This document shows, piece after piece, positions 8,401-53,919 of a DNA stretch of 64,000 nucleotides; position 1 is the stretch's first letter, and each line of letters starts with the position of its first letter. Where the stretch lies: positions 1 through 64,000 of IMG/VR virus record IMGVR_UViG_3300032236_001503; one strand, 5' to 3'. The position numbers were made by a program, and so were the translations under genes. The DNA is from a virus. Below the pieces are notes generated by a model. It was not told the DNA's origin. It did not search any database and saw nothing but the letters and a program-made list of their open reading frames with translations.

Positions 8401-11400
8401 CTTTATTTGCTGAAACATAAAAATTCTGTGAATTTGTATTATTGTGAGCATAAGCAGTTGGTGCTTGTGATACTGTAAAATTATTATTATTAACAATAGT
8501 CAGATATCCACTATTTCCTTGATGCCAAGTATATGGTGGATATATTAAAAAGTTAGTTGGTGCAAAGAATTGTGCAGTTGGTAATGTGTATATAGTTTGT
8601 GTTGAAACTAAATTATGAGGAATTGTCCACCCAGCAATTGTTGCACTCAATGCACATAATGATACATTTGTTGATGTAACACTAGGTGAGGAGATTACAT
8701 AATTAAAGGTAGAAATACTACTGAGATTTGCTGATGTTGAACTCAGTGAATAATAATGCCCTGTATTATCCGTTATTACCCATTGAATAACAGGAGCAAC
8801 TAAATTGGATACGATTTCACCAGTTGAAAATTTAAAACTATTAAAATCTGTATTTGGTCTAGATAGTACATTATTCGCAGATGTATTTGCGATAAATGGT
8901 GAATTTTGAGGAGAATAAATTATATATTCTAATTGATAGAATTGATTTATATCATACCAAGAAATTTCCTGATTAACCACATTAGTTACAACACCATTGG
9001 TGACTGTTATTTGAACTGGAACCAATACGGGTCTAGGACCTAACCAAGGATATAATTGTATTATTGGTTGTGATTGGAAATATATGTTTACAACTTCTCC
9101 TGTAAAGTTATATGCTGTTCTAAAATATGTATTAAAAATGTTATCTGATGGATAATCTAAAACACTAATATTACTATTTCCTATGGTATATGGATTATTG
9201 TAATGCGATATCGCTGATACCGATAAATTGTGAATATTAAATGAGTTTAGAGATGAACTTAATTGTACATTTAAAACTATAGAGCTTAGATAATCAGAAA
9301 AATTAGTACTACCGTTACTATATGTATTTCCAATAAATGGTGTATTATTATAAAAAGCAGTAATTGGTAAATTAGTTGTTTTGTTATCGTAACTCCAAAC
9401 CCAATACATTGGAATGCCTGTTGGGATTTGATATGAATTTTGGTTGTATGGAACCGTTGCAGTTACGGTATATGATACAGTTTTTCCCAAAATTTGCGTA
9501 TTTGCGACACCAACATTAAATTTATTATGTGAGAGGATATTGAATAAATTTGGATTAGATGAAAGAGTTGCAGTTTGATTATATTTCTGAGAGGAAAGAG
9601 TTACGTTTACGGTGTTAGGACCGTATCCCGAAACCGAAACCGTCCAACTGTTACTATTAAATGGAATTGGTTGATTTATTGGAATTGCTGATAAAAATGT
9701 TCCATCTGGATTAACTGATTGTAAAGTGATATTACAATTTGGATTAACATTATTGGAATTAAAATTCCAACTTATTAAAGAATTACCTTGTAATGATGAA
9801 TTGGTATCACTTAATGTTAAAAGATTTTTTGATGGGAAATCTGGGTAAGATGTCAAGAATGAAGAATCTACTGTTATATTATCTGCTTCTTCATTTATTA
9901 CCTTTAATGATATAGGATAACCGAGTGCTGCCTTATATACATTATTTTGTCCTGATGCAAAATGTATAAATGTTGCATTATTTGATTCGGAAATATAATT
10001 AAAGATGCTACTACTTAAACGGGTTCTTAATGTTATATTAAAGGGTCCGTACGATGATAATGGATAAACTAAAAGGAATTGTGATCCTTCTGATGTTGGG
10101 ACAAACGGTGAATTTATAATATCATAAACCTGATCTAGATTAGATCCATAATAACAAAATATCTCATCTAATACATATGGTGTATTTTTTGGAAAATCAA
10201 TTACATTTAAAGAGATGAAATCATTTGGAGCATATGTTGGTAAGTCAACATTTAATATACCAAAATCACTAGCTAAACATGATGAAAGATAAACAAATTC
10301 GGTTTGTCCATATTGAGTAGCACCGGATGCGGTGTATTGTTTGGTTACACCACTTGATAAGTTAAATCTTAAACTATAAGTGTCACTTGGATTTGGGAAT
10401 GCATTATTGGTAAATGATGTTTTAAATGAATAATAATGCGGTGAATATGGAATAGTCCAAACCATAGTATCGAATGGTGTTGACCCATCACTAATCGGTA
10501 CGTTTAATGGAATTAAACCAGAATTACTTGTTACAAATGTAGTTGAGCCAACACTAGAAAGTGTATTGGATAAACTATTAAAATAGTAAGGAGATTCCGC
10601 TATATATTTTAATTTTAACGATTGACTTGCTGCGTTGAAATCAGGTTTACAATAAGGATATCTATTTCCGAAATTATCTTTATATGTAGCATTATTATAT
10701 CTGAAACTCGTAGGGGAATTACATGATAATGATATTGATAAAATACAATTGCTGAAATCTTGAAGTGGTGCGCTTGGGTTTATCGAACTCTGTGTTAATT
10801 GTAAAGTCTGATAATTTATTGAGTTTAAATTAAAATTATTAATGAATGATGAACGAAAATCATACCATAAAGTAGGTACTTCTTCTGGAAAGAACTGACC
10901 AAGTGGAATCATCTGATTCCATAGGTAGTTATAAGTTGTAATATTGTATTTTATATTAATTGAATTTGGTACAATATAAATGTTATTATCTTCCAATTGA
11001 ACATTGAAACTAAAAGGATTAAAATTAGGAGTATATGTTAAAACATTGTTTATTACGTTTTTTGATGCTGATAAACTATAAACCAAATTAACTGGTATAG
11101 AATTTCCTCTTATAGGATTAAAATATGGTTGATTGAATTTATAATTGGTATGTTTAACATAAGAATCGTGATCAACAACATTACTACCCACGAATAAAAC
11201 ATTAGTTGAAAGTAATACGGTTGAAGTTTGTAAATTAAACGTTCCGTTATTATTAGCTGAAAGTGAAATTGGTTTTAAAAATAATCTTTGTGGATACAAT
11301 AAATAAGCAGCATCAAATAGATTATTTGCAGTATTAGTTTGATTAATTGATGATAATACTGGATTTTGTGATGAATTATTATCAAATGAACTAATTGAAA

Positions 11401-11752
11401 GTATGAAATTGTTAAAAATATCTCCTATATTATAGGTTCTTAATGTTGATGGTTTCCAAGTAAAAGTGTTATTACTTGTTTTTGATGTGATTTGATAGGT
11501 ATCAGATTCTGGATCAACATAAGAATTTGCGTTTCCAAAATTAAAATCAATTTGATTATAAACATCAGTCACGTTGTTTATATCGTTGATCGGATTATCT
11601 ACAAATCTGAATAAGTTCAAATACTTCATTGAACTCAATCCTGCAACTTTACTGTTAAAGTATGTTGGTGTTATAAGATATTCTTCCATGGGCCAACTGC
11701 CGCTCATTGCTACAGTGTAATAACCATTTGAAGCTATGTTATAAGATGACAT
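5477..11752 (-). CDS. Very large virion structural protein (baseplate-associated; PKD-like and NHL/beta-propeller regions)
   Basis: 2091 aa, N/S/T-rich. PKD-like YNIYFGDG..HSYQSEGTYTLS; NHL-like NPVSIDYD..LYVLD and GGRQDPNKFNSPTELI..VYVLD. Lies in the baseplate gene run with a late box upstream. Confidence 0.6.
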   Translation of the reverse strand: MSSYNIASNGYYTVAMSGSWPMEEYLITPTYFNSKVAGLSSMKYLNLFRFVDNPINDINNVTDVYNQIDFNFGNANSYVDPESDTYQITSKTSNNTFTWKPSTLRTYNIGDIFNNFILSISSFDNNSSQNPVLSSINQTNTANNLFDAAYLLYPQRLFLKPISLSANNNGTFNLQTSTVLLSTNVLFVGSNVVDHDSYVKHTNYKFNQPYFNPIRGNSIPVNLVYSLSASKNVINNVLTYTPNFNPFSFNVQLEDNNIYIVPNSINIKYNITTYNYLWNQMIPLGQFFPEEVPTLWYDFRSSFINNFNLNSINYQTLQLTQSSINPSAPLQDFSNCILSISLSCNSPTSFRYNNATYKDNFGNRYPYCKPDFNAASQSLKLKYIAESPYYFNSLSNTLSSVGSTTFVTSNSGLIPLNVPISDGSTPFDTMVWTIPYSPHYYSFKTSFTNNAFPNPSDTYSLRFNLSSGVTKQYTASGATQYGQTEFVYLSSCLASDFGILNVDLPTYAPNDFISLNVIDFPKNTPYVLDEIFCYYGSNLDQVYDIINSPFVPTSEGSQFLLVYPLSSYGPFNITLRTRLSSSIFNYISESNNATFIHFASGQNNVYKAALGYPISLKVINEEADNITVDSSFLTSYPDFPSKNLLTLSDTNSSLQGNSLISWNFNSNNVNPNCNITLQSVNPDGTFLSAIPINQPIPFNSNSWTVSVSGYGPNTVNVTLSSQKYNQTATLSSNPNLFNILSHNKFNVGVANTQILGKTVSYTVTATVPYNQNSYQIPTGIPMYWVWSYDNKTTNLPITAFYNNTPFIGNTYSNGSTNFSDYLSSIVLNVQLSSSLNSFNIHNLSVSAISHYNNPYTIGNSNISVLDYPSDNIFNTYFRTAYNFTGEVVNIYFQSQPIIQLYPWLGPRPVLVPVQITVTNGVVTNVVNQEISWYDINQFYQLEYIIYSPQNSPFIANTSANNVLSRPNTDFNSFKFSTGEIVSNLVAPVIQWVITDNTGHYYSLSSTSANLSSISTFNYVISSPSVTSTNVSLCALSATIAGWTIPHNLVSTQTIYTLPTAQFFAPTNFLIYPPYTWHQGNSGYLTIVNNNNFTVSQAPTAYAHNNTNSQNFYVSANKGGLYQYGYANLNDPSVSLFSTFNTNNHLINLPYVNDLSSNRGLTVYLTAFNNFFPRRSVNSLNYIGLTSNNSTSGLYLGNYSIASNTNSFNNLTYSKNGLSAFNQSPKLVGYDTLQLQFSTVDTAVVFDYNTVTQLGLQFTPVTSIDLDNNIFVGVLQTLTVPNTANTPVRALQNPNSYVTYSLSSLSGGWVSQINVPMVNGLYDLFILNIGDGSQPLTVDNYVQNHLLLNASATLSAYIPSTTYNLATSYTGSYDSWNVIEQKLTTATESFVVYATAVKPEIYISSYYATTGDNIFIQFKTPYLQNTPEANVAITSYNIYFGDGLSAYHLVNDITQHSYQSEGTYTLSYQVNYNNGSSLSFQLPNTHAITVYNTWPTYDQSKIRLLTEEYLTLPWTVDQVDIQPNEYADADIFNTAMSRLYDNLEYLIYNTQTINTDSPTLFYGWLGTSQNNVGRGIQWHTQDFLSGDYVHPNYATVSSAQNAVSPSFSNIKDLVQTDYYTFVLDGLSARAFTTGANPTEIFFDNINEVYQLLVNPVSIDYDEPSQNLYVLDQYYNKIYKLNLSFDYINEINIQLVVGNYGGRQDPNKFNSPTELIYLNDNVYVLDYQNHCLKHYTEDLNWIYTYYNEEFDINVGTSIKPIYTNNPECFAVHPTTEFPYILTISNKIYVFDTMGDLITSFQLTDQNGINLKAKPIKIIFDKNGNFMYVLYSNEIIKFTLTGTFISYVDKIPSVEFLNFTSAKYSNSESLVFSTSNSIIKCQDIVTLFKVGEGLPYQYWTKDQILISRDEFTMDNVYNRAFTRLIQNIKTFRNTMNSKFVIVTESTPYGQIQYFSKTPILVSSRPVFADDIENENVQVGVNEFNIPQVLNRELGKIYNALNYLAGYLTVTDNRNLSGINTGCSNPFCWSWKGMSCYNLTLPVIRICNINPITYAELQSNFPSSYSFSSSQQLTKTWGEASSDCCNDTFYPNASS

Positions 11753-11787
11753 AATAATATTTATTATAAAAGGTTAAAAAATCCCCT

Positions 11788-14700
11788 TTAAATCAATCCA
11801 AATCCTTTATAAAGTTGATAGGTGAAGATAAATTCCATCATACCGTCACTATTATTCCAATTAAGGTAAGAATCTGGGTATGCTCCAGAAATTTGATTAG
11901 TTAAGGCTAACAGGTACTCGTCTTTATTAATGTTTGTAAATTGATTATTCCAATCTATAGTATTTTCCACGTATACTTCATTTGTAGCAGGTACAAATTC
12001 ATAAAATTCATATAATTGTGTCCAATCATAGGAGTTATTTTTTATACCAAGATAATAGGCAAGTTCATCCAAACTATAAGATGATACACCAGCAGTTGAT
12101 AAATTTGTAACCTTATCATCATAAAGTGGAACCTGTCCGGTTGGGATTAAGCGATATGAATTTAGAGATTTTGCTTTTAATACAACAGGGGTTCCAGCGG
12201 AAACCATATATGTATTTGTATCTAATAAATCACCCCTATTAAAATTATCATATTTACTAGGTGATGAGAAATTAAAGGAATCATTTAATACGCTACCAAA
12301 TAATCTACTTTGATTTATACTTAAAAGATCCATAGATCTTTGTATATCAATTGGATATTGTAATCTAAAATCATCAGTGTTTAAATCAACCGATTGAGCT
12401 AAATCATATAGATTATCAACATTACAAGTGTCTAAATCCATAATATTAGAAGTATAATTTGCAATTTTTTCGTATGATTTTACGCCTAAGTCGTCATGGG
12501 ACGATAATCCAAATATTGATGTGAAGAAATTAAAGAGATTTGTACTTTCTTGTAATGTTTGTTGGAAGGCAACAGATTTAAGTTGTCCTGACATATCAAA
12601 ATTTTCATTTATCTTATAAAGATCATAATAATTTTGAGGGTAAAAGGATATATAATTTGGTGCAGTCGTTCCAGATATATTTTTATATATGGTTCCTGTT
12701 GTATCACTTATATATGATGGATCATTATTATAAGCACTGAGGTAGTATTTGTTCGTCCATCTAAAGCCAGACCAATCCCCGTTTGCTTGCGCTGATTTAC
12801 TCCAAGGATTGTAATCATACATTGTTGCAGTATTAGCAGCACTAATATATGGAACTATACCCTTTGGATTTATATAAAAATTATCAATTATACTTTTAGA
12901 ATTTGAATCAATAACATATATTTTATTTTCTATGGAATTAATAACATATATTCTACCCAATAAATCACAACTTATACCTTCTAATGCTGTTTCATCTGCA
13001 TTTTTATTTGCATCGAACCATTGCGGTACGTTATTAGCGTAGTTGTCGCTTGATATAGCGAAGGTGACGGTGTTACCATTAGTAGGATTTATACTGCCAA
13101 CATAATGATAGCTATAAGTGAACCAAATATTCTGATTAATGTCGATTGTTATATCATTTATTGAATTGAAAGGACCGAATGATGTTAATAAAGCACCATT
13201 TGTGTTAATATATTGTAGATAACTTGAGTCAGTACCGGATGTTATGTGATTTGTTGATACCCATAAATTGTTATTGTTATCGCAAACTATTTCATAGGGT
13301 GAACTATAGTGATATCGAACTGATGTCAATAAATTACCATATGTATCATAATTAACTAACCATCCACTGAAAGGATTTGAATAAGTTACCCAAACATTAT
13401 TATTTAAATCTGTTTCAATGCATGTTGGTTGAATTGGATAACTGTCATCTGAATCATATGATAAATTATTTGATTTTACATTGGATTGATCTATCCATGA
13501 TTTTAAGAAATCTGGATTTTGTATTGGTGCAGCATCAAAGGTAACTGTTGTTATATAATTTCCTAAATTATCGAATTTAAATACATATGGTGTATCGAAA
13601 CATGCAACCCAAACATCTTGATTGCTATCTAAAGCAATCGACAATGGTGTTAATTGATTTGGAATTAAGAAACTTAATTGGGCAGTTGTATACTGAAGTA
13701 GCGTTAATAAACTGTTTAAGTTTACATTAATTAATATATCACCAACTGAATTTATTCTATATAAACTATTGAGTTCACTATCAGCTACCCATGCATGATA
13801 TGTTGGTTCCGGTAGTGCCGCAATCGCATTAATACCATGAATACCCGAAACTGCCATGACATCATTTTTGAATTCAACATTAAACGGTTGTATTGTTGGT
13901 ACGTCAAAAGCATTAACATGAACCTTATCTAAATAACCCAAAGAGACCGCAGAAAATGCTGGATTTGAATAATATTGAGCAGTTGCTAACATTCCTGCAT
14001 TTGGATTTGATATCCATAATATTGGATTTACATATTTTGTTGAAAGTGATGGAACTGGAAAATAACCACTACCTAATATTTCACAATCAACAGTACTTGT
14101 GTAATTTACAAAAGATCCTTTATAATAACCTCCAACTTTAAATCCATTAGAATCTTGAAATTTAAATTGTAAATTATCTGGTGTATAGGTAAAATTCAAT
14201 GGCGTACCATTTAAATCAAAAGCAGATAAACTAAATGGAATATTATTTGAACTGAATAGATTATAATATGTTGTATTATCAAAGGGAATATAGTGAATGA
14301 ATTCATTTTCATTAGCTATAACGGTTCCGTTTCCATCTATGAGATCATCCGCATAATAAGTTGGATTAACTTTCATGTTAACCAACATTGGATTATCCTG
14401 CCCAATAAATCTAAGTTTTGAGAATGGATTTATTCCGTTTTGCGTTATATTTAAATAATCTGGTTCCCTGAATGTAAAAATGTGTGGTAATGTAACCGAA
14501 GCAAGACTGTTTGAAAAACTTGGTGTTTTATTATCCTCATTAAATGAACCATTAAATGATCTTAATCCTGATGTTCTTAATGTTGCAATAATTGTACTGT
14601 AAGGATTTTCATTGAAATATAAATCCGTATTATACAAATCATCAACAAAATAAAATTCAGCAGTTCCGGAAACACCTACAACGTTTCCACTTGGATTTAA

Positions 14701-16797
14701 TTTACCAACTTCATCAATTGCAATTGGAGAATCTACTGTTTGAATGAAATCTATTTGATTACCACTTAAATCTAAGAATCTCCATTGTGGTCTTAAGAAA
14801 GACCAATTATTTTCAGGTTCTTGATAGCGATAAGATTTTGAAAATTGAGCACCCAAATCGATAAAATGAGGTTCGGTGCTTGATGATGTTATGTTTATTT
14901 TAAAAGGATATCTATTTAAGTGACCAGCAAATGTTGGTGGTGGTATTAAATCAAAATATAAAGATTCATTTAAATATAACTGTACGGGTATTACATTTGA
15001 ATCAGTAAAATATTCACCACTACTAGTATAAACTGTTAACGTTACATTATAGTTATTTGGTAATGTATATAAATGTTTTGGATTAGGTTCTCTGCTGCTA
15101 GAATAATCACCAAAATTCCAATAATATGTATTAATTCCTAGTGATGATAATTGAACGTCCGTTGTGAATTGAAAATTTGTAGCGTTTGCAAAACCACTAT
15201 TTAAATTTGTATTAAATAAACTTACTTTTACATTAGTATTAGCTATGGCTGTGTTGATGATAGTATAATCATCACCAACTACCTCATAAGCAGTCATTGA
15301 AACTGTATAATTGCCAGATGAATTATATATGTGATTTCCGGATATTTGATTTGTTAAGGTTCCATCACCTAAATCCCAATAAAAAAGATTATAATTTTGT
15401 GCAGTATAACTATCTGGAACGTATGTAAAATCAGTTGTTAAGGTATAACCGAAATTTGGGGGATTTAATACTATACTAGCTGGTGCTATAGTTGTACCAA
15501 TAGATAATGTACTATTTGTTGGTACTATAGTTGTAGTTTGTGTTGGTGAAGATGTAGCTTGATTTGATATAGTTAATAAATTAGGAACTTTTGGTGATCC
15601 AACACCTGTTACTAAATCATAACCCTTTGCTGATGCATAACCATTGCCACCATCAACGATATCATTAAAGTAATATGATGAATTTTGATTATATAAACTA
15701 TAAATTTGTTGATTTGCAAAAGATGAACTTTTGGTATATAACCCAGCACTGCATCTTCTAGCCATTATAGCAGCCCATTGTGGTGCGGCTGCACTGGTTC
15801 CAGCTAATGCTTGATAGTATGATATATTTGTATATGGATTTGTCCAAACTATCCATGCAGCTGCACCGGAATTATATGATACATCAGGAACACCTCTACC
15901 TGATAATGCAACATTATTTACGGTTAAATTTGCTTGATAAGATGGTACTGGATTTACTGATGCTACTGCTTCACCACCACCACTTCCACTCCATGAAACT
16001 TCACGGTACGGACCGGGTGAACCAGAATAATACAAATTATTTCCACCTAATAAAACAGTTCCACCTACACCCAATACATTTGGTGAAGATGCTGGGTAAT
16101 TTACTTGAGCACCAGAATCACCAGCCGCTGCAATAAAAATTGTATTTCTTGTGTTAAAGATATTATCAAATCCACTTTGATAAAAATACGATTGGTCAGG
16201 ACCGCAAGTAAAACTCATTGATACAACATCTGCGCTCAATGTGTTTACAGCGAAATTAACTAATGCTGGTAAATCAGCTACACTATTTTGGTAATCGGTA
16301 ATTAAAACCAAATTAGCAGATGGAGCCATCGCATAAGCATATTGTATGTCTAAACTTGTTTCTTGACTCCATCCAAAAGCATCCGCTGAAAGTGCTGGAT
16401 TATTCTTTAAACTTGTCCAATTAGTAGCACCAAGTGGTGCATATACTTGTATTGTCTTTTGGGGTAATCCCATAGCAGTACAAAAGAAATTAAGATCACT
16501 TTGTGCTGTTGGACTACCATAGAAATCTATGATAGCTATAGTTTTACCGGAACCGCTATTACTAAGAGTTGTTAATTGGTCAAATCCATAATAGCTTATA
16601 AAATTTTGAGGGATAAGAACACCATATCCACTTGGTGCTGATATCTCTTCTTGATTTAAATCAGATATACCAATACCATTTGAAAAGGAATCACCATTTC
16701 TGATGCTACCAGTTTGTCCATTTAAATCCCCATCGTTTTCAAGGTATTTCCAACTTAACAGGGGTGTAGCTTTTAATGCAGATAAATCCATATACAA
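11788..16797 (-). CDS. Baseplate wedge-like protein with N-terminal S53 (sedolisin/kumamolisin) peptidase, two PKD domains and a beta-propeller
   Basis: S53 motifs ETSLD, AAGDSG, YPASSPNVLGVGGT, RGVPDVS, AGTSAAAP, GYDLVTGVGSP; PKD motifs YWDLGDG and YWNFGD; directly downstream of gp6 (the gp7 position in T4). Confidence 0.8.
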   Translation of the reverse strand: MYMDLSALKATPLLSWKYLENDGDLNGQTGSIRNGDSFSNGIGISDLNQEEISAPSGYGVLIPQNFISYYGFDQLTTLSNSGSGKTIAIIDFYGSPTAQSDLNFFCTAMGLPQKTIQVYAPLGATNWTSLKNNPALSADAFGWSQETSLDIQYAYAMAPSANLVLITDYQNSVADLPALVNFAVNTLSADVVSMSFTCGPDQSYFYQSGFDNIFNTRNTIFIAAAGDSGAQVNYPASSPNVLGVGGTVLLGGNNLYYSGSPGPYREVSWSGSGGGEAVASVNPVPSYQANLTVNNVALSGRGVPDVSYNSGAAAWIVWTNPYTNISYYQALAGTSAAAPQWAAIMARRCSAGLYTKSSSFANQQIYSLYNQNSSYYFNDIVDGGNGYASAKGYDLVTGVGSPKVPNLLTISNQATSSPTQTTTIVPTNSTLSIGTTIAPASIVLNPPNFGYTLTTDFTYVPDSYTAQNYNLFYWDLGDGTLTNQISGNHIYNSSGNYTVSMTAYEVVGDDYTIINTAIANTNVKVSLFNTNLNSGFANATNFQFTTDVQLSSLGINTYYWNFGDYSSSREPNPKHLYTLPNNYNVTLTVYTSSGEYFTDSNVIPVQLYLNESLYFDLIPPPTFAGHLNRYPFKINITSSSTEPHFIDLGAQFSKSYRYQEPENNWSFLRPQWRFLDLSGNQIDFIQTVDSPIAIDEVGKLNPSGNVVGVSGTAEFYFVDDLYNTDLYFNENPYSTIIATLRTSGLRSFNGSFNEDNKTPSFSNSLASVTLPHIFTFREPDYLNITQNGINPFSKLRFIGQDNPMLVNMKVNPTYYADDLIDGNGTVIANENEFIHYIPFDNTTYYNLFSSNNIPFSLSAFDLNGTPLNFTYTPDNLQFKFQDSNGFKVGGYYKGSFVNYTSTVDCEILGSGYFPVPSLSTKYVNPILWISNPNAGMLATAQYYSNPAFSAVSLGYLDKVHVNAFDVPTIQPFNVEFKNDVMAVSGIHGINAIAALPEPTYHAWVADSELNSLYRINSVGDILINVNLNSLLTLLQYTTAQLSFLIPNQLTPLSIALDSNQDVWVACFDTPYVFKFDNLGNYITTVTFDAAPIQNPDFLKSWIDQSNVKSNNLSYDSDDSYPIQPTCIETDLNNNVWVTYSNPFSGWLVNYDTYGNLLTSVRYHYSSPYEIVCDNNNNLWVSTNHITSGTDSSYLQYINTNGALLTSFGPFNSINDITIDINQNIWFTYSYHYVGSINPTNGNTVTFAISSDNYANNVPQWFDANKNADETALEGISCDLLGRIYVINSIENKIYVIDSNSKSIIDNFYINPKGIVPYISAANTATMYDYNPWSKSAQANGDWSGFRWTNKYYLSAYNNDPSYISDTTGTIYKNISGTTAPNYISFYPQNYYDLYKINENFDMSGQLKSVAFQQTLQESTNLFNFFTSIFGLSSHDDLGVKSYEKIANYTSNIMDLDTCNVDNLYDLAQSVDLNTDDFRLQYPIDIQRSMDLLSINQSRLFGSVLNDSFNFSSPSKYDNFNRGDLLDTNTYMVSAGTPVVLKAKSLNSYRLIPTGQVPLYDDKVTNLSTAGVSSYSLDELAYYLGIKNNSYDWTQLYEFYEFVPATNEVYVENTIDWNNQFTNINKDEYLLALTNQISGAYPDSYLNWNNSDGMMEFIFTYQLYKGFGLI

Positions 16798-16803
16798 AAA
16801 CTA

Positions 16804-18603
16804 TTAAAAATCCGCAGCCTTGATCGAACCAGTTGTTTCTTGTATAGTAATTCTTGATGCTATATTTGAAACATTATTAAATACTGGATATTGGAAGTAA
16901 TCTAAATTTACGTTTTGAGTATAAACTTTAGCATAGTTATCAGGATAAACATAATCCCAGAATAATAAAGAAACACCTTCTACATATGTGTCTAAATCAG
17001 CACGATAAGTTTGTACTCTTTGAACTCCATCAACACTTAATATACTTGTTGATAATTGATAGATATCAATTGTTTGACCAAGAGTATTTTTTGATCTATC
17101 AAATGTATTAGTAAAGATAGTTTGAATATCGTTTAAAATGGCGGTATCGGCTCTTCTTGTGTTTGGGTTTTTTGTTATGACTAAACCTGAGTTACCAAGA
17201 TCACTTGGTGATGGTTTTATATATGGACTTGGTGTATAAAAATCAATATAAATGTATACAGGGTCCATTGGTACGATTTCAGCCGTAATAGTTTTATGTG
17301 AATTAATTCCATTTAATATAATTTCCTTTTGTGTGGAATTTAAATAATTCTGTAAAGGACTACTTGGTACTGAATATAAATAAAGATTATTAAAGTTACA
17401 AGCATTTGAAAAATTAACTTGATTAATTAAAATTCTATTTTCCAATTGTGGTGTATTTAATCCTATATCATACAAATAAGCAATATGACCTGCCAAGTAA
17501 TCATCATTACTAACAAGCTGAATATCGGTTAATAGATTGGAATAGTTTTGTTTAATAAATGTTACATAATCATTGGTTGTAACTAATCTATATTGTGATC
17601 TAAAGGCATTGGGTGAATTTTTACGAATTGAATCAACTGATTCTTCAGCAGTATAAACAGTTGAAGGATAGTCGTTGTTCAATGACACCTGACTTAATTG
17701 ATTAATTGTTAAATAATTTTGATTAATTGAAATGTCTTTTATAATTTGATTAAAAGTTACAGAATTATAAGGGACAAGTGATGAATTGTTTAAACCATTA
17801 GGTCCAATTCCCTGTGAATTTTGATCAATTTGTAAATAAAATATTTGAACCTGATCACCTGTACTTAATCCCTTACCATTAACATTATCACCAAATGTTA
17901 TTTCATAATTTTTATTTTGATTAAATCTTACCTCGTAAACCAAATCATTAGAACCATATAAAAATAAATCTGTTGCTCTTGTCCACTCTTGCCAAACTCC
18001 AGTTGCTGCTGGCTTAACATATACGAATATATTAAAGTGATCTAAAAATACATTTGTTGGCAATGTGATATAGGCTACTTCATTATCAATACCTAAAGCA
18101 GTATAAAGTGGATTTTCTTGAAACACTCCTTGATATGCCAAATACGTATCAGCTATATTAGAAATAACTTCCTCTTTATTTGTAAACTTGGTAAAGTTTA
18201 TATCTTGATTTACTGAATAAATTGTTCCACCAACGTTTAAATAACTATATCTTGGTATTGTATAATTTCCTAATGTGATTGCAGGAGAAACAGTCATGGT
18301 AAATGGAACATTTGCTCCCAATCTACCAATTGGATTATAATCCAAAAGTTTAACAATACGATTCATGTTTTCATAAAGCTGTGCTTCAGTGAACATGCTT
18401 TCTGATGATGTTTTATTAAGATAATATAATAGTGTACTAAAGGAATAACCAACAACGTCTATCAATGCTGATAAGTTAGAACCCTGATAGTTTTGATCAG
18501 TAAAAACTTTACCCTGATTTAATCTACTGATGATTAAATCACGAATACTTGTGCCATCGAAGGCAACATATGAACTTTGGTCGAAAACAGGATTGGTAGC
18601 CAT
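16804..18603 (-). CDS. gp6: Baseplate wedge subunit (T4 gp6-like)
   Basis: FTDQNYQGSNLSALIDV, ESMFTEAQLYEN, YEITFGDNVNGK, EESVDSIRKNSP..QYRLVTTNDY. Confidence 0.9.
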   Translation of the reverse strand: MATNPVFDQSSYVAFDGTSIRDLIISRLNQGKVFTDQNYQGSNLSALIDVVGYSFSTLLYYLNKTSSESMFTEAQLYENMNRIVKLLDYNPIGRLGANVPFTMTVSPAITLGNYTIPRYSYLNVGGTIYSVNQDINFTKFTNKEEVISNIADTYLAYQGVFQENPLYTALGIDNEVAYITLPTNVFLDHFNIFVYVKPAATGVWQEWTRATDLFLYGSNDLVYEVRFNQNKNYEITFGDNVNGKGLSTGDQVQIFYLQIDQNSQGIGPNGLNNSSLVPYNSVTFNQIIKDISINQNYLTINQLSQVSLNNDYPSTVYTAEESVDSIRKNSPNAFRSQYRLVTTNDYVTFIKQNYSNLLTDIQLVSNDDYLAGHIAYLYDIGLNTPQLENRILINQVNFSNACNFNNLYLYSVPSSPLQNYLNSTQKEIILNGINSHKTITAEIVPMDPVYIYIDFYTPSPYIKPSPSDLGNSGLVITKNPNTRRADTAILNDIQTIFTNTFDRSKNTLGQTIDIYQLSTSILSVDGVQRVQTYRADLDTYVEGVSLLFWDYVYPDNYAKVYTQNVNLDYFQYPVFNNVSNIASRITIQETTGSIKAADF

Positions 18604-18618
18604 TATATTATATTTATC

Positions 18619-19206
18619 TTATATTAAGATTTGTCCTCCCAATTGAGCAAAAATACTTAAGTTATCTTGTACGCTTAACGGAAGAATATCATATACTAAT
18701 GAAACAGCATAACCAGCACCTAGCGAATTGATATCCGATACCGACTGAAGCGTTAATTGTGTTCCATTTAAATTTATAACTGGTGTTGATGTTGGATTAG
18801 GTAAAACATACACACTTACAACACTCACTCTAGGTTCAAATTGAGTTATGGCATTATTAATATCGTTACCTATTGCATTTGCACCAAGAACCGAAACTGG
18901 TTCAAAAAGGTATTTTAATAAAGAACACCCAAAAGTTGGATTTAAGACCTTTTGACCCGGTATTGTGGTGAATAAATTTCTTAAAGAGTTTTTAATTGCT
19001 TGAATATCTGAATCGGATGCAATATCTCTTGATTCTACTGGATTTAAACCTATACCAACTGATTGATTTGGGGTTTCACTAGTAGTTAAATCTAAATGCA
19101 AATCGCTATAAATGGGTGTAGTTACCTGAACCTGTTTACTCACGGAAATACCAGATGAATTAACTTGTTTTGGTTGAATTAAATTATTTAAATCGATTAT
19201 TGCCAT
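18619..19206 (-). CDS. gp25: Baseplate wedge protein gp25-like
   Basis: YSDLHL..AIKNSLRNLFTTIPGQKVLNPTFGCSLLKYLFEP..ITQFEPRV. Confidence 0.9.
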   Translation of the reverse strand: MAIIDLNNLIQPKQVNSSGISVSKQVQVTTPIYSDLHLDLTTSETPNQSVGIGLNPVESRDIASDSDIQAIKNSLRNLFTTIPGQKVLNPTFGCSLLKYLFEPVSVLGANAIGNDINNAITQFEPRVSVVSVYVLPNPTSTPVINLNGTQLTLQSVSDINSLGAGYAVSLVYDILPLSVQDNLSIFAQLGGQILI

Positions 19207-19237
19207 GAAAAGGGTAAATAGTTATGTAAATATACTT

Positions 19238-19819
19238 ATGGCAAAGTTCAATAAATTTGATACACTTTTAGAAACAGCATTTTCACACTATTCAAATGGT
19301 GGATTTAGAGAAGGCTCACCAGTGAGAATTAAACCAGAATTCTTAAAGCATCCTTATTTCAAATCACATTACAGTGGTGACGAATTATTTTGTAATTGGT
19401 TAAAGGATTTAATGGAAAGAAAGTACTTCTTCTTCATTAAGAGAGTTGTTGGACATGGTGCTATGCAAGATGTTAAGGATTCTAATGATAACGAAGGTGC
19501 AGGAGATGCTTTCTTAATCCTTAAGCTTGATCCTAGAACAGTAAATGCACCAACGGAATTAGGTGAATTCACCGTTCCTGCTGATTTCGGTGTTGTTGAG
19601 GTATTAAATTTTGGAGGCAACTTGCCACCAGTTCAATCTGTTCCAAATAGATATGAATTACCAATTGGATATCAGAAGCCTCAACCAGTTCAGATTGATA
19701 TTACTATCAATAATCAACCAACCGATAAAGATTTAGCAAAAGGTAATACAGCGATACCAGCATCCCCTGCTCAAGCTGCTAAATTTGATAAGCCGCAGAA
19801 GCTTAAGTTAAGAAAGTAA
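19238..19819 (+). CDS. Hypothetical late protein (possible head-internal protein)
   Basis: Track start 19205 overlaps the gp25 start codon. ATG 19238 (MAKFNKFDTLLE) follows a GTAAATA box by 5 nt. Confidence 0.7.
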   Translation: MAKFNKFDTLLETAFSHYSNGGFREGSPVRIKPEFLKHPYFKSHYSGDELFCNWLKDLMERKYFFFIKRVVGHGAMQDVKDSNDNEGAGDAFLILKLDPRTVNAPTELGEFTVPADFGVVEVLNFGGNLPPVQSVPNRYELPIGYQKPQPVQIDITINNQPTDKDLAKGNTAIPASPAQAAKFDKPQKLKLRK

Positions 19820-20737
19820 GGCGTTCTCTATTGCTATAAGGCAACAGAAGAAATTAATTTCGTGATCAATCACGAAGTTATCCCTATACATATGTTCTCC
19901 TATCTCTAGGATAATCCTCTTCTTTGTTGCTTCTTTAATTTTGGTTGTATCGTAAAAGAAATCCAAAATACCTTTTAACAAGGTTTGATAATCCGCTGCA
20001 AACGTTCTCTCGTTTTCGATTACAATCTGTCTTATCTTTATTGAATCAACTTTTGATAACAATGCAGTATAAACATTCTCGGCAATGTTTTTAACATCAT
20101 TAGCCCGATTAATAATGAGAGTTCCAGTAATGGAGAATCTCTGAAGATCATTGATAATTCTCCTCATATCAGGAAAATTATTCTTTACAAATGTAATAAA
20201 TTCTCTTTGTGATCCTATATCAACATTCTCCAATTTCAGAATATTCAAACATCTCTTTGCACATTCGGCTAAATCGGGAATGATATTAAAGAGTAAGCAT
20301 CTGGATTGGATGGGTTCGATGATTTTGTTTATATAGTTCGACGTAAGAATGAATCTAGTTGTATCTGAATACTCTTCCATGACACTACGAAGGATTCTCT
20401 GGGCATCGTTTGTAGTGCCACAGAACTCGTCTAGAATGATTACTTTCTTCTTACCATCCAAAGATGAGGTTTGGGCAAATAAAGTTACCTTATTTCTAAT
20501 TGTATCAATACCGTTTTCATCGGATGCATTGATATAAAGAGATTGACATTTGAGAATATCATTTACGATGATCTTTGCTAGTGTAGTTTTACCTGTACCA
20601 GCATGACCATAGAGAAGAAGATGAGGTGTGTCCTCATTTATACCAGAAAAGAATTTCCTATTCTCTTCAGAAAGAACCAAATCCTGTAACTTCTTAGGGC
20701 GGTATTTCTCTACCCAAAGCTGATCATATAAACTCAT
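19808..20737 (-). CDS. gp44: Clamp loader AAA+ subunit (T4 gp44 / RFC small subunit-like)
   Basis: LWVEKYRP, Walker A GHAGTGKT, INASDENGIDTIR, VIILDE, IIEPIQSRC. Confidence 0.95.
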   Translation of the reverse strand: MSLYDQLWVEKYRPKKLQDLVLSEENRKFFSGINEDTPHLLLYGHAGTGKTTLAKIIVNDILKCQSLYINASDENGIDTIRNKVTLFAQTSSLDGKKKVIILDEFCGTTNDAQRILRSVMEEYSDTTRFILTSNYINKIIEPIQSRCLLFNIIPDLAECAKRCLNILKLENVDIGSQREFITFVKNNFPDMRRIINDLQRFSITGTLIINRANDVKNIAENVYTALLSKVDSIKIRQIVIENERTFAADYQTLLKGILDFFYDTTKIKEATKKRIILEIGEHMYRDNFVIDHEINFFCCLIAIENALLS

Positions 20738-21637: not shown

Positions 21638-23104
21638 TTAGAGGTAGTTTGCAGCGACTGCATTACCTTGGAAGTTAGTTCCGAGACCCTTAACTATGAT
21701 AACGTGGTAGTATAAAGATGCACCGAAGATATGATCAACTACGCCGTAGCGAGTCATAAGACCTACACGTGGTGCAAAGTCATTAGGACCAACTGTGCGT
21801 TGGATCATAACTGGGATGTATGGGCAATATACAATACCTGTATCGTAGTATTCGGTTCCCTTATAACCTAAGAGGGCATACTCAAGCGGATTTGCTCTTT
21901 GACCTGAAAGATACTGCGCATCGGTACGTGTGTCACGGTAAACGGTGAAACGTCCACCAAGTGTTCCAACTTTGGCAATGCCTGTTGGCTGGGTGTTTAC
22001 GTTTCCATTTACTGGCATCCACTGAAACTCTGGCAACATTTCAAGAATTGCACAAACACGAGGTGTAGCGATAACGAAGTTAGCACTACCTCTACGGTTG
22101 CGGATAGCAACACGGTTTGCTTCTACAATAACCTTGGAATAGAAGTCACGGTTTCTCTCACCAAGCCAACGTGCGTCAGCTGATTGAGCGTACCAATATG
22201 TGTATCCGTTAGGTGTACCTGCATTGAGACATACTTGGATCATTCTCATGACCATTTCACGGTCGATTTCAGCCTGAATTTCATATGACATTGCATTTGT
22301 TAATTCAGAATCGATATCTAAACCGTTCATGTTCTTGAGATCCTGTTCAAGTTCAACTGACCAACGAGCAGCGAGGCGGCGTGTGCCAGCTTCAACTGCT
22401 GTTTTGCTGAACTCAACAACAACCTGTGGGATGTTGCCAGTTAATTCATAGTCACTTAAGAGTGCGGCAACACCCTGATCTTGACCGAGAACGGTGAAGT
22501 CAGCGGAGTTTGCACCAGTAATTCCTTGGAAATATGATGCTGCACTTGTGCCTGTGAATCGTGTATCTAAGTATTGATAGCCTAACTCCTGTGCGTCTGA
22601 GGATGTACGGTCGTAACCGTCACCTGTCTGCACAGTTCCTGGTCCGTACTGGGTAACACCTGGGGTGGCTACACCATCAAGACCATTTCCTGCTAAGCTG
22701 TCTGCCTCATAGCGGTAACGTAAAGCAAATGCAAGTCCGACTGGGCCGCTCATTGGCTGGACACCTACGATCTCGTTTGTGATAAGCTCTGGGAAAGTAC
22801 GGCGTACCATTGGGATGAGTACCTTTGGTAAGCGACTGTCTCCAGCAGCATAGTTATCACTGGAAAACTGATTGTATGATGCAGCTGTGCCGAAAACACC
22901 ACCCTGACCGGATGAGTTTGAGGCTTCTTCGATGCACCATCTTTCTTGGTTTTCCATGAGAATAGCAGTAGTTAAGCGTTGGTGCTCGTTTTCGATTGCT
23001 GCAACCTTATCGGATGAATAATCAAGAACTGGGGCCCACTTTTCAACTAACTGCTGAGCACGAGAACGATCAATGTAGCCTGTGGCTGGATTAACGTTTT
23101 TCAT
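21638..23104 (-). CDS. gp23: Major capsid protein
   Basis: KWAPVLD, LIPMVRR, EIVGVQPMSGPVGLAFALR, ELEQDLK, EIQAEIDRE, YCPYIP, GLMTRYG; AGGAG Shine-Dalgarno upstream. Confidence 0.97.
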   Translation of the reverse strand: MKNVNPATGYIDRSRAQQLVEKWAPVLDYSSDKVAAIENEHQRLTTAILMENQERWCIEEASNSSGQGGVFGTAASYNQFSSDNYAAGDSRLPKVLIPMVRRTFPELITNEIVGVQPMSGPVGLAFALRYRYEADSLAGNGLDGVATPGVTQYGPGTVQTGDGYDRTSSDAQELGYQYLDTRFTGTSAASYFQGITGANSADFTVLGQDQGVAALLSDYELTGNIPQVVVEFSKTAVEAGTRRLAARWSVELEQDLKNMNGLDIDSELTNAMSYEIQAEIDREMVMRMIQVCLNAGTPNGYTYWYAQSADARWLGERNRDFYSKVIVEANRVAIRNRRGSANFVIATPRVCAILEMLPEFQWMPVNGNVNTQPTGIAKVGTLGGRFTVYRDTRTDAQYLSGQRANPLEYALLGYKGTEYYDTGIVYCPYIPVMIQRTVGPNDFAPRVGLMTRYGVVDHIFGASLYYHVIIVKGLGTNFQGNAVAANYL

Positions 23105-48182: not shown

Positions 48183-48871
48183 CTTTTTAATGGACTATTA
48201 ATACCATAAAAATTATTAAATGCAATTGAACTTGTCTGCCAATCTTGCGTATTCATAGAATCACCAAGACCAAAATGAATAACCCTGATAGGAGTAACAC
48301 CCATTTTTAATTTATGATAATTAGCATTTAAGCAAAAGGTAATATCGTAATGATGAAAATTAAAATTCTCATCGAATTTCAAAGGTGTTTGTAAAACCTT
48401 TTCCATATTAACTGCTAGGAAAAGTCCATCCATTACTAATGCACGAGATTCAGATTTACCAAAAACAGTTGTCCATACGTTTTTCTGGTGACAATGACCA
48501 ACTTCACCTACATGATCTTGTCTATCACTCATTAAATGCCAAGCAGGTGGCTTTGTGATATCACATTTCTTAGATCCAGCTAAACCAACAATATCGTATT
48601 TTTCAAATGCGAGATTAAGTTTTTCTTCCCAAAACAAATCTTCAATTAAAACATCATCATGAACAAAAATAATTCTTTTTAATTTGTTTTTTTCAATAAA
48701 AAATTGATTGTATATCTTAGGCAAACCTTCTTTATTTTCAAAAAACACTGTACAGTTATTTCTATAACCAGCTTTCTCTAAGAAAATAGCAATTTGAGAT
48801 TTTTCCCAGAAATCTTCTTCGTTTAACTGGGTTGCAATAACAAAATGATAATTACTTGGTAGATTTGACAT
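48179..48871 (-). CDS. GT-A (GT2-like) glycosyltransferase
   Basis: GLPKIYN, IFVHDDV, DGLFLAV, FDENFNFHHYD. Confidence 0.75.
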   Translation of the reverse strand: MSNLPSNYHFVIATQLNEEDFWEKSQIAIFLEKAGYRNNCTVFFENKEGLPKIYNQFFIEKNKLKRIIFVHDDVLIEDLFWEEKLNLAFEKYDIVGLAGSKKCDITKPPAWHLMSDRQDHVGEVGHCHQKNVWTTVFGKSESRALVMDGLFLAVNMEKVLQTPLKFDENFNFHHYDITFCLNANYHKLKMGVTPIRVIHFGLGDSMNTQDWQTSSIAFNNFYGINSPLKR

Positions 48872-48901
48872 AAAACAGGATAAATAGTTGTAATTATAAT
48901 A

Positions 48902-50852: not shown

Positions 50853-50858
50853 CCTCCT

Positions 50859-50886
50859 ATGGTAACAGTTATTTTAACACTGTCAA
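50859..50886 (-). promoter_or_regulatory. Sigma70-like promoter TTGACA-N16-TACCAT (extended -10 TG), 6 nt before the primase ATG
   Basis: Read directly from the sequence. Confidence 0.7.
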
Positions 50887-50890
50887 CAAA

Positions 50891-51376: not shown

Positions 51377-51384
51377 ATTACTAC

Positions 51385-52074: not shown

Positions 52075-52076
52075 AA

Positions 52077-52379: not shown

Positions 52380-52386
52380 TAATACT

Positions 52387-52414: not shown

Positions 52415-52415
52415 C

Positions 52416-52796: not shown

Positions 52797-52813
52797 ATTA
52801 GACTATTTATCCT

Positions 52814-53898: not shown

Positions 53899-53919
53899 AT
53901 AGCTACTTATTCAAGTGGC

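What the first reader, a model, noticed from the sequence alone, without database searches (positions are those of the whole stretch)
15570..16630. Sedolisin (S53) protease fused to the N-terminus of a baseplate wedge protein
Seen: the complete S53 catalytic set (ExxxD in ETSLD, oxyanion Asp in AGDSG, Ser in GTSAAAP, Ca-site GYDLVTGVGSP), followed by a Thr-rich linker, two PKD domains and the baseplate body, next to gp6. Only ~55 aa precede the catalytic domain, so the usual long activation prodomain seems absent. Known: S53 enzymes are typically acid-active. Inference: a baseplate-mounted protease that cuts an S-layer or protein coat; it may hint at an acidic habitat.
Basis: partly seen in the sequence, partly recalled or inferred. 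Interest (0 to 1): 0.75.

Follow-up and report, generated by a model that had tools for sequence, protein, structure and literature searches.

The report
Sedolisin protease head on phage baseplate-cluster protein
An uncultured T4-like phage has an apparently working acid-type (S53) protease joined to the front of the large protein encoded next to baseplate protein gp6. About 85 related phages lack this addition, so the virus probably carries a protein-cutting enzyme on its tail, which has not been described for a cultured phage.

Summary
The gene at window 11788-16791 (-) encodes a 1667-aa protein. Residues ~56-411 are a full sedolisin (S53) catalytic domain (kumamolisin-As E=1.3e-16; AF2 model pLDDT 88.8; the 17 best PDB fold matches are all S53). 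Glu146, Asp150, Asp227, Ser335 and the Ca-site Asp379/Asp394 are intact.

There is no prodomain and no signal peptide. A Thr-rich linker, two PKD domains and a conserved 1061-aa core follow.

About 85 orthologues always lie beside gp6 and start at the PKD domains or the core. The protease module was inserted exactly between the gp6 stop and the ancestral start codon, which is now ATA.

Assembly chimera is unlikely. Codon use matches the neighbouring genes, and an independent 21.5-kb Logan contig is identical, although it probably comes from the source sample.

The module belongs to a signal-less lineage that heads other giant proteins in four sister phage genomes. No S53 domain was found in 50,697 GenBank phages.

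'Baseplate wedge (gp7)' rests on gene position only. Substrate, pH dependence and presence in the virion are untested.

First-stage notes of this scan report separate S53 genes in phage tail regions of six or more other genomes, none as this fusion. I rate it a new variant of a known kind.

The parts
16633..16791 (-). Short N-terminal extension (aa 3-55) carrying the 'SWKY..DG....G' motif. It is neither a signal peptide nor a classical S53 prodomain.
   Evidence: Maximum Kyte-Doolittle hydropathy is 1.0, against more than 2 in bacterial relatives that have signal peptides. The motif is shared with bacterial members (e.g. P0127, P0134) and with some phage members, but it is missing from P0122-P0124, so it is optional. 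It is modelled with pLDDT about 70-90. No Pro-kuma_activ hit was found.
15565..16632 (-). Sedolisin (MEROPS S53) catalytic domain, aa 56-411. Catalytic residues are Glu146, Asp150 and Ser335, the oxyanion residue is Asp227, and the Ca2+ site is Asp379/Asp394.
   Evidence: Kumamolisin-As E=1.3e-16. AF2 pLDDT is 88.8 and pTM 0.89. The top 17 Foldseek PDB hits are all S53 (1t1e E=1.2e-20). The catalytic residues are invariant in 17 close relatives and invariant or nearly invariant in 60 homologues. Coordinates were checked.
15490..15564 (-). Thr/Ser/Pro-rich flexible linker (aa 412-436) that ends at the fusion junction.
   Evidence: Sequence NQATSSPTQTTTIVPTNSTLSIGTT. pLDDT is below 50. Relatives carry much longer PT linkers at the same place.
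15487..15489 (-). Former start codon of the ancestral gene, now ATA (Ile437).
   Evidence: The DNA alignment with L002 places ATA GCA opposite ATG GCA (MASSYIILNPP against IAPASIVLNPP). There is no Met between residues 345 and 501.
14974..15489 (-). Two PKD domains (aa 437-608). These are accessory modules whose number varies among orthologues (0 to 3).
   Evidence: Pfam PF18911/PF00801 with two stretches. The profile matches the PKD domains of ColH collagenase. Orthologues carry 0 (P0076, G004), 1 (P0083, P0046), 2 (most) or 3 (P0017) PKD domains.
11791..14973 (-). Conserved 1061-aa core (aa 609-1669). It has an N-terminal conserved region, an NHL/'Pizza'-like beta-propeller and a conserved helix-rich C-terminal region. 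By position it is the candidate gp7 analogue.
   Evidence: There are 83 homologues at 36-79% identity. The propeller matches Pizza/NHL proteins (E down to 3.7e-11). The core lies directly next to gp6 in L002, L005 and G001-G004. No sequence or fold match to gp7 was found.
16804..18603 (-). gp6-like baseplate wedge subunit. Its stop codon lies 12 nt before the ATG of the fusion gene.
   Evidence: phrog_219 E=2.4e-38. PF21379 Gp6-like_1st gives a weak match. tblastn matches T4-type and cyanophage gp6.
18619..19206 (-). gp25-like baseplate wedge subunit, the first gene of the gp25-gp6-fusion row.
   Evidence: PF04965 GPW_gp25 2.7e-15; phrog_261 1.8e-26.

Best explanation
The gene makes one polypeptide. 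Its conserved C-terminal core is built into the tail baseplate next to gp6, and its N-terminal modules point outward. At the tip sits a prodomain-less sedolisin (S53) serine-carboxyl protease on a flexible Thr-rich tether, followed by two PKD binding domains.

During adsorption the tethered protease cleaves a proteinaceous layer or a surface protein of the unknown host, such as an S-layer, sheath, fimbrial or glycoprotein coat. This would clear the way for the baseplate, in the way glycan depolymerases and tail lysozymes act on other barriers.

Shown here:
- The domain is an intact S53 fold with all catalytic residues.
- It is an in-frame insertion at the 5' end of a conserved gene that always follows gp6.
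- The module comes from a phage-type, signal-less sedolisin lineage that is also placed at the N-terminus of other giant proteins in sister phages.

Inferred:
- The core is a baseplate (gp7-position) protein.
- The protease stays on the virion.
- The protease is active, and its substrate is on the host surface.
For: 1. The protease domain is intact. Kumamolisin-As gives E=1.3e-16. The AF2 model has pLDDT 88.8, and its 17 best PDB fold matches are all S53. E146, D150, D227, S335 and D394 are invariant in the 17 closest relatives.

2. The fusion is real and specific.
- The ORF is continuous.
- The insertion lies exactly between the gp6 stop (TAATAG) and the ancestral ATG, which is now ATA.
- GC3 (0.163) and codon preference (0.347) match the neighbouring late genes (0.16-0.18; 0.29-0.35).
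- A separately assembled Logan contig of 21.5 kb at depth 30 covers 13500-18500 with no differences.
- The exact protein is on two contigs, one of 226,568 bp.

3. The orthologues lack the module. 83 homologues align only to the C-terminal 34-74% of the query. The closest (79% and 71% identity) start at 'M..S.I.LNPP.FGYT'. Synteny (clamp loader, gp25, gp6, body) is the same in L002 and L005 and in G001-G004.

4. The N-terminus of the family accepts different modules. Orthologues carry 0 to 3 PKD domains, and LamG, YHYH or 960-aa inserts occur elsewhere in the protein. This fits an exposed position.

5. The module belongs to a signal-less lineage. 21 signal-less sedolisins, four of them on IMG/VR phage contigs, lie on one side of a branch (SH-aLRT 96). 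In four phage genomes of the same clade (gp6 51-55% identical) the module heads proteins of 647 to 3337 aa that carry LamG/pentaxin-like lectin domains.

6. There is a precedent for clan-SB proteases in T4-like virions. Cyanophage S-SCSM1 gene SSCSM1_228 (1411 aa, GenBank note 'baseplate wedge subunit (virion protein)') has an S8 domain with Asp, His and Ser motifs. The paper on that phage reports a mass-spectrometry virion proteome (PMC9602691).
Against: - No data show that the protein, or its N-terminal part, is in virions. The host is unknown.
- The core has no detectable sequence or fold similarity to T4 gp7, P2 gpI-type proteins or the cyanophage protein in the gp7 position. 'Baseplate' therefore rests on position only.
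- Characterised S53 enzymes have acidic pH optima (PMC2635056). Activity in ordinary natural water would need either an acidic setting or an atypical enzyme.
- In sister genome G004 the sedolisin gene lies among nucleotide-metabolism genes, and some relatives are free-standing proteins of 370-500 aa. The lineage as a whole therefore need not be virion-bound.
- Only one sequencing run holds the sequence, and it is probably the source sample.
Confidence: 0.5

Rival explanations
1. The sedolisin is an assembly or maturation protease. It works inside the infected cell or during tail assembly, processing the phage's own fibre or baseplate proteins or cutting itself off at the Thr-rich linker. It is not present, or not active, on the mature virion.
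For: - The flexible linker sits exactly at the junction and could be a cleavage site.
- Classical S53 enzymes process themselves autocatalytically (PMC2635056).
- Unchecked first-stage notes of this scan describe separate S53 genes inside tail operons of other phages, some coupled to collagen-like fibre genes.
- Some lineage members are free-standing or lie outside structural gene blocks.
Against: - About 85 orthologous phages assemble the same gp6-adjacent protein without any such protease. G006-G008 show no S8/S53 domain in the parts available. The protease is therefore not needed for assembly of this protein.
- The partners in relatives are lectin-like target-binding modules (LamG, pentaxin-like, PKD), as in secreted enzymes.
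- The cytoplasm is near neutral, where known S53 enzymes are poorly active.
Confidence: 0.2
2. The domain is a binding module and not an enzyme. The sedolisin fold would serve as an adhesin or receptor-binding head that grips a host surface protein or peptide, with little or no turnover at ambient pH.
For: - It sits at the N-terminal tip, ahead of PKD domains in a protein family with variable binding modules.
- S53 chemistry needs low pH, so at neutral pH the cleft might bind without cutting (inference from PMC2635056).
Against: - All four catalytic residues and the Ca site are invariant in the 17 closest relatives, at only 38-49% overall identity to the window domain. That pattern is expected for an enzyme under selection, whereas pseudo-enzymes usually lose at least one catalytic residue.
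Confidence: 0.1
3. The protein is a soluble lysis-time enzyme that is not part of the virion. The whole fusion would be released at lysis and digest proteinaceous matrix or debris around the cells. Its place next to gp6 would then say nothing about function.
For: - There is no signal peptide, so release would depend on lysis.
- A follow-up note of this scan places a prodomain-less S53 in a phage lysis cassette (unchecked).
- Free-standing relatives exist.
Against: - The conserved core is a universal neighbour of gp25-gp6, with intergenic gaps of about 6-35 nt, in at least 7 genomes of the clade. It occupies the slot that holds gp7 in T4-type phages and a giant virion protein in cyanophages.
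Confidence: 0.1
4. The fusion is an assembly chimera or a sequencing artefact joining two unrelated genomes.
For: Only one public run holds the sequence, and it may be the source sample.
Against: - An independent assembler (Logan) gives an identical 21.5-kb contig at depth 30.5 across both junctions.
- The exact protein is on two contigs.
- GC3 and codon preference of the module equal those of the flanking genes.
- The junction is in frame and sits exactly at the old start codon.
Confidence: 0.03

Closest known systems
Kumamolisin / kumamolisin-As, sedolisin (PSCP) and human TPP1 (MEROPS family S53; PDB 1t1e, 1sio, 1ga1, 3edy)
   Same: They share the subtilisin-like fold, the Ser-Glu-Asp triad, the oxyanion Asp and the Ca2+ site. 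Sequence identity is 21-30%.
   Different: The window domain has no prodomain of about 190 aa and no secretion signal. It has a short optional 'WKY' extension and is fused to a phage structural-cluster protein of about 1230 aa. Its pH optimum and specificity are unknown.
Uncharacterised prodomain-less S53 peptidases of bacteria (e.g. Legionella fallonii P0226, Prosthecobacter P0188, Verrucomicrobiota P0127, and Planctomycetes-type giants P0093/P0100)
   Same: They have the same subfamily architecture: a catalytic domain that starts 30-80 aa after the N-terminus, often followed by PT linkers and binding domains. Identity is 35-41%.
   Different: The bacterial members carry signal peptides or export motifs. 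The window domain and its 20 nearest relatives do not, and they form a separate branch.
Signal-less sedolisin heads on giant proteins of sister phages (IMG/VR loci L024 1574 aa, L025 3337 aa, L026 1567 aa, L027 647 aa; also P0242-P0251)
   Same: The sedolisin lineage is the same (41-51% identity). The module is always at the extreme N-terminus, followed by a Thr/Pro linker. The phage clade is the same (gp6 51-55% identical).
   Different: In those phages the module is on other proteins, 33 to over 100 kb from gp6, and their gp6-adjacent orthologue lacks it. Only the window's phage has it on the gp6-adjacent protein.
Cyanophage S-SCSM1 SSCSM1_228, 1411 aa, 'baseplate wedge subunit (virion protein)', with a Peptidase_S8 domain
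   Same: It is a T4-like phage tail-region giant protein with a clan-SB protease domain near the N-terminus and intact catalytic motifs. The GenBank note marks it as a virion protein, and the paper reports a virion proteome (PMC9602691).
   Different: It is an S8 enzyme (Asp-His-Ser, neutral/alkaline type) and not S53. The rest of the protein is unrelated, and the gene is not next to gp6. The paper does not discuss a protease.
T4 gp7 and the giant proteins in the gp7 position of cyanomyoviruses (P-TIM40 gp099, 7351 aa; S-SCSM1_15, 4120 aa)
   Same: The gene lies directly after gp25-gp6. It is large and modular with peripheral domains.
   Different: There is no detectable sequence or fold similarity.
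Virion-borne tail enzymes in general (tailspike glycan depolymerases, the T4 gp5 lysozyme, tail peptidoglycan endopeptidases)
   Same: The design is the same: a hydrolase carried on a tail protein to breach a host surface layer. This comparison draws on established knowledge and was not tested here.
   Different: Those enzymes cut polysaccharide or peptidoglycan. A general protein-cutting S53 enzyme on a baseplate-cluster protein was found in none of 50,697 GenBank phage records, in no PHROG family and in none of the papers searched.

Membership tests
MEROPS S53 (sedolisin family) | Subtilisin-like alpha/beta fold of the peptidase unit | tested here: met
   AF2 model pLDDT 88.8. Foldseek PDB ranks 1-17 are all S53 (1t1e E=1.2e-20, TM by target 0.54-0.78).
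MEROPS S53 (sedolisin family) | Ser-Glu-Asp catalytic triad (kumamolisin E78/D82/S278) | tested here: met
   E146, D150 and S335 align with the catalytic residues. They are invariant in alignments A2 and A4.
MEROPS S53 (sedolisin family) | Oxyanion-hole Asp (kumamolisin D164) in place of the subtilisin Asn | tested here: met
   AAGDSG is identical to the kumamolisin-As motif. D227 is invariant in A2 and at least 90% conserved in A4.
MEROPS S53 (sedolisin family) | Octahedral Ca2+ site with two Asp ligands near the C-terminus | tested here: met
   D379 (NDI) and D394 (GYD) are conserved. D394, G398 and G400 are invariant.
MEROPS S53 (sedolisin family) | N-terminal activation prodomain (Pro-kuma_activ, about 190 aa) removed autocatalytically. 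This is typical of characterised members but is not part of the peptidase unit. | tested here: not met
   Only about 55 aa precede the domain. No PF09286 hit at E<=10. The same holds for thousands of homologues.
MEROPS S53 (sedolisin family) | Acidic pH optimum of catalysis | not testable with these tools
   This needs an enzyme assay. Computed pI values (4.1-5.5) do not differ from bacterial relatives or from other virion proteins.
T4 gp7-type baseplate wedge protein | Gene directly downstream of gp6 in the wedge gene row | tested here: met
   gp25-gp6-X is found in the window and in L002, L005 and G001-G004. The slot is the same in T4-type and cyano-myoviruses.
T4 gp7-type baseplate wedge protein | Sequence homology to gp7 or P2 gpI-type proteins | tested here: not met
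   hhalign of the family profile against T4-type gp7 gives probability 0.4%, and against the C-terminus of P-TIM40 gp099 0.1%. The PDB profile search returned no baseplate chains. There are no Pfam or PHROG hits.
T4 gp7-type baseplate wedge protein | Helical core-bundle / trifurcation fold that pairs with two gp6 chains | tested here: inconclusive
   The monomer model of the last 370 aa is poor (pLDDT 60.8). Foldseek gives nothing below E=0.1. VIA-align gives at best Z 3.4. Among these noise-level rows, a helical hairpin matches the N-terminal helices of small baseplate chains (9ndy_M, 7yfz_C, 9cuy_P; Z 2.7-3.3).
Virion-associated tail enzyme (depolymerase-type receptor-destroying protein) | Hydrolase domain covalently joined to a tail structural protein | tested here: inconclusive
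   The covalent fusion is shown. The structural role of the partner is inferred from position only.
Virion-associated tail enzyme (depolymerase-type receptor-destroying protein) | Presence in purified virions and activity on a host surface polymer | not testable with these tools
   The phage is uncultured, the host is unknown, and there are no proteome data.
PKD domain (PF00801/PF18911) | Profile match above the curated cut-off | tested here: met
   59.3 and 53.1 bits against cut-offs of 27 and 23.5, with two stretches.

The most novel reading that the evidence does not exclude
The fusion is one case of a phage-specific class of pH-gated 'enzyme heads'. These would be prodomain-less, signal-less sedolisins that need no inhibitor because they are silent at the neutral pH of the infected cytoplasm. 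They would switch on only outside the cell, in acid water or in the acidified wall zone of an energised host. The baseplate would then carry a protease that both clears a protein coat and reports that the particle has reached a suitable surface. In this uncultured T4-like clade the module is moved between fibre-like giants and the gp6-adjacent baseplate protein as a host-range cassette.
Probability: 0.15. Interest if true: 0.8.

Novelty: new variant of a known kind. Interest (0 to 1): 0.55.

Why it matters
Tail-borne enzymes that breach host envelopes are central to phage host range and to phage-derived enzymes. The known ones cut sugars or peptidoglycan.

A catalytically complete S53 protease mounted on a baseplate-cluster protein would add protein-cutting to that set. 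It would also point to hosts whose first barrier is proteinaceous.

It further exposes a large uncharacterised branch of S53 enzymes that apparently fold without the prodomain thought to act as their folding helper and inhibitor. That is of interest for protease enzymology and for enzyme engineering.

The natural comparison, in which about 85 orthologues lack the module and four sister phages carry it on other proteins, gives a clean system for studying how phages shuffle enzymatic modules.

Tried and rejected
The contigs of P0002 and P0003 and of the nearest sedolisin relatives (P0242 and others) could not be inspected. Context came from IMG/VR loci only.
- tblastn of the whole protein and megablast of the region against 50,697 GenBank phages found no match. 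The N-terminal domain alone at E<=1 also found none.
- PHROGs gave no family for the whole protein, none for the sedolisin part, and only insignificant hits for the core.
- A single-sequence pattern search of IMG/VR with the sedolisin domain found nothing. The alignment-based search did find loci.
- gp7 tests all gave nothing usable:
  - PDB profile search;
  - Pfam at E<=10;
  - hhalign against T4-type gp7 and the P-TIM40 giant;
  - T4-type gp7 against the window's own genome;
  - AF2 of the last 370 aa (pLDDT 60.8), followed by Foldseek and VIA-align;
  - ESM Atlas.
- The promoter and terminator scan of 11000-20000 was at chance level (57 found against 59 expected). The T4 late-promoter word TATAAATA is not enriched (8 found against 15.8 expected) and is absent upstream of gp25.
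- pI and charge, tried as a hint of acid adaptation, were uninformative.
- Habitat could not be established. IMG sample numbers appear in one paper without a habitat for these samples. Run and sample names are coded. Runs X2 and X3 hold next to none of the sampled words, which is no evidence of absence.
- Literature searches for sedolisin/S53 or subtilisin-like domains in phage tails or baseplates found no relevant paper.
- A search of the scan's notes by sequence found no look-alike stretch.
Full report
**What is there**

The window belongs to a 163-kb IMG/VR virus record, estimated 73% complete. It is a deeply divergent T4-like phage.
- It encodes a gp23 major capsid protein (PF07068 4e-91, at most 35% identical to any cultured phage).
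- It also encodes a gp22-like scaffold, a gp21 prohead protease, gp15 and a gp44 clamp loader.

On the minus strand, gp25-like (18619-19206), gp6-like (16804-18603) and one long ORF (11788-16797) follow each other with gaps of 6-15 nt. The long ORF has 1669 codons from a TTG. The database form of 1667 aa starts at the ATG at 16791.

**The protease domain is real and complete**

- Residues 81-419 align with kumamolisin-As over its whole catalytic domain (E=1.3e-16). TPP1 is also found.
- An AlphaFold2 model built on 60 homologues has mean pLDDT 88.8 and pTM 0.89. Its 17 best matches among solved structures are all S53 enzymes: pro-kumamolisin, kumamolisin-As, Pseudomonas sedolisin and TPP1. Subtilisins follow only at E values about 1e-11 and weaker.
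- Glu146 and Asp150 (ETSLD), Asp227 (AAGDSG), Ser335 (GTSAAAP) and the calcium ligands Asp379 and Asp394 sit at the aligned catalytic positions. They are invariant or nearly so in the alignments of 17 and 60 homologues.
- Pfam sees only Peptidase_S8 (1e-8) and no Pro-kuma_activ prodomain. About 55 residues precede the start of the mature-type domain, and they are not hydrophobic.

**The missing prodomain is a subfamily trait**

An exhaustive search found 10,548 homologues. Many are bacterial S53 peptidases of 370-460 aa with a signal peptide and no room for a prodomain, for example in Legionella, Prosthecobacter, Verrucomicrobiota and Thermoplasmata.

A short motif (P.L.WKYGW.DG) after the signal peptide of some bacterial members recurs in the window's residues 12-35. 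Several close relatives lack it, so it cannot be an obligatory folding helper.

**The module is an insertion specific to this phage**

- 83 homologues (36-79% identical) match only the C-terminal 34-74% of the query.
- The two nearest (79% and 71% identity) begin MESSSIVLNPPDFGYT and MASSYIILNPPNFGYT. These align with window residues 437 onward.
- In related IMG/VR contigs the order clamp loader, gp25, gp6 (598-599 aa), body (1225-1234 aa) is the same. The body gene starts 6-7 nt after gp6.
- At the DNA level the window keeps the gp6 stop TAATAG. About 1.3 kb of extra sequence follows, and homology resumes at ATA GCA opposite the relatives' ATG GCA. The old start codon is therefore gone, and there is no Met between residues 345 and 501.

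**Chimera test**

- The module's GC3 (0.163) and codon preference (0.347) equal those of the flanking late genes.
- Logan's independent assembly of the one run that holds the sequence gives a 21.5-kb contig at depth 30.5. It is identical across 13500-18500.
- The exact protein is recorded on two contigs, one of 226,568 bp.
- The run is probably the source sample, so this is independence of assembler and not of sample.

**Where the module came from**

- The 17 closest proteins (38-49% identity to the window domain) have the sedolisin at the extreme N-terminus, no hydrophobic leader and long Pro/Thr linkers. Varied C-terminal parts follow, such as LamG and repeated beta modules.
- An alignment-based search of IMG/VR found five viral loci. 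Four lie on large contigs whose gp6 is 51-55% identical to the window's.
- In those four contigs the sedolisin heads proteins of 1574, 3337, 1567 and 647 aa, located 33 to over 100 kb from gp6.
- In the same four contigs the gp6-adjacent orthologue starts at the conserved core without any protease.
- In a maximum-likelihood tree the 21 signal-less sequences lie on one side of a branch (SH-aLRT 96), apart from 43 other, mostly signal-peptide-bearing relatives. The window is sister to P0242 (SH-aLRT 94).
- Caveats on the tree: the rows were chosen by similarity, the root is a midpoint, and the viral origin of the non-IMG/VR rows is inferred from their lack of a leader.

The simplest reading is that the module is shuffled within this phage clade. 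A fresh capture from a bacterium is less likely.

**The partner protein**

The conserved core (aa 609-1669) has three parts:
- an N-terminal conserved region;
- an NHL/'Pizza'-like propeller (E down to 3.7e-11 to designed Pizza proteins);
- a helix-rich C-terminal region.

Orthologues differ in the number of N-terminal PKD domains (0 to 3). They also differ in internal inserts: LamG in P0007 and P0017, YHYH in P0083, and about 960 aa in P0076. The N-terminus is thus a permissive, probably exposed, site.

The 'baseplate wedge' label rests on position. The gene follows gp25-gp6 in every genome examined. That slot holds gp7 in a T4-type phage and giant virion proteins in cyanophages P-TIM40 and S-SCSM1. 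All direct tests of gp7 homology were negative or inconclusive.

**Mechanism**

I consider a tethered, virion-borne protease acting on a host surface protein layer the most likely function (about 0.5). The grounds are:
- an enzyme under clear purifying selection;
- its place at the free end of a modular protein of the baseplate gene row;
- a flexible linker and neighbouring PKD domains, as in secreted collagenases, whose PKD domains are the best PDB matches;
- partner modules in relatives that are lectin-like.

A cultured T4-like cyanophage offers an unremarked parallel. S-SCSM1 gene 228 carries an S8 subtilase domain with Asp, His and Ser motifs. Its GenBank note reads 'baseplate wedge subunit (virion protein)', and the paper reports a virion proteome but never mentions a protease.

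Several points count against certainty:
- Known S53 enzymes work at acid pH (PMC2635056).
- The host and habitat are unknown.
- Some lineage members are free-standing or lie among metabolic genes.
- Nothing shows that the N-terminal part stays on the particle.

The rivals are a maturation or self-removing protease (0.2), a non-catalytic binding head (0.1), a soluble lysis-time enzyme (0.1) and an artefact (0.03).

**Novelty**

- No S53 domain was found in 50,697 GenBank phage records at tblastn E<=1.
- No PHROG family matches the domain.
- The searched literature holds no paper on sedolisin or subtilisin-like domains in phage tails.
- Among predicted viral structures, the S53-like matches are from giant viruses (23-27% identity). 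Phage entries there are only weaker, S8-like matches.
- First-stage notes of this scan report separate S53 genes in tail regions of six or more other phage genomes, and one follow-up describes a prodomain-less S53 in a lysis cassette (unchecked). A search of those notes by sequence found no look-alike of the window domain.

This finding is therefore one more, architecturally distinct, case of an emerging pattern: a new variant of a known kind (tail-borne enzymes), not a new category.

Noticed in passing
L040:9577-13812 (Synechococcus phage S-SCSM1, MK867354.2 189576-193811): A cultured T4-like cyanophage encodes a 1411-aa protein whose GenBank note reads 'baseplate wedge subunit (virion protein)'. 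It has a Peptidase_S8 domain (E=1.6e-28) with DTG, HGSH and GTSMAAP motifs. The paper on this phage does not mention a protease.
   Followed up: partly
window 5477-11752 (-) and 1271-5458 (-): Two more giant genes follow the fusion gene. One encodes a 2091-aa protein with weak PKD and NHL matches. The other encodes a 1395-aa protein with RCC1 repeats (PF25390 1.4e-48) and a weak match to a head-closure PHROG. They are probably further baseplate or fibre components.
   Followed up: no
P0134 / P0141 (705 aa; one on a 421-kb contig): These bacterial-type, prodomain-less sedolisins carry a signal peptide and are fused to RCC1-repeat propellers. The same repeat type occurs in the window's 1395-aa protein.
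   Followed up: no
L027:6532-8475 (G004, 169.8-kb contig): In this sister phage the 647-aa sedolisin protein lies among nucleotide-metabolism genes (adenylosuccinate-synthetase-like, deoxyribonucleotidase, ribonucleotide reductase) and not among tail genes.
   Followed up: partly
L024:4470-8960 and L026:4497-8981: A protein of about 1495 aa with a von Willebrand factor A domain lies directly upstream of the sedolisin-headed giant in two sister phages. A Gly-rich 'virion structural protein'-like gene lies downstream.
   Followed up: no
P0076 (2036 aa, G002:C1 about 48240-54320): The orthologue of the core in the complete 225.8-kb sister genome has no PKD domains. It carries an insert of about 960 aa between the conserved helix-rich region and the last 100 residues. 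This is a second permissive insertion site in the family.
   Followed up: partly
BFVD hits A0A3G4ZQN5, A0A3G5A7D9, A0A3G4ZQ87, A0A3G5AIP2: Metagenomic giant viruses (Terrestrivirus, Homavirus, Barrevirus, Sylvanvirus) hold the best S53-like structures among predicted viral proteins (E 1e-22 to 1e-28, 23-27% identity).
   Followed up: no
window 21638-23104 (-): The gp23 capsid gene has a much higher GC (0.46) and GC3 (0.38) than the tail genes (GC3 about 0.17). The clamp loader and scaffold genes are also higher. Codon use thus differs by gene class within the window.
   Followed up: no
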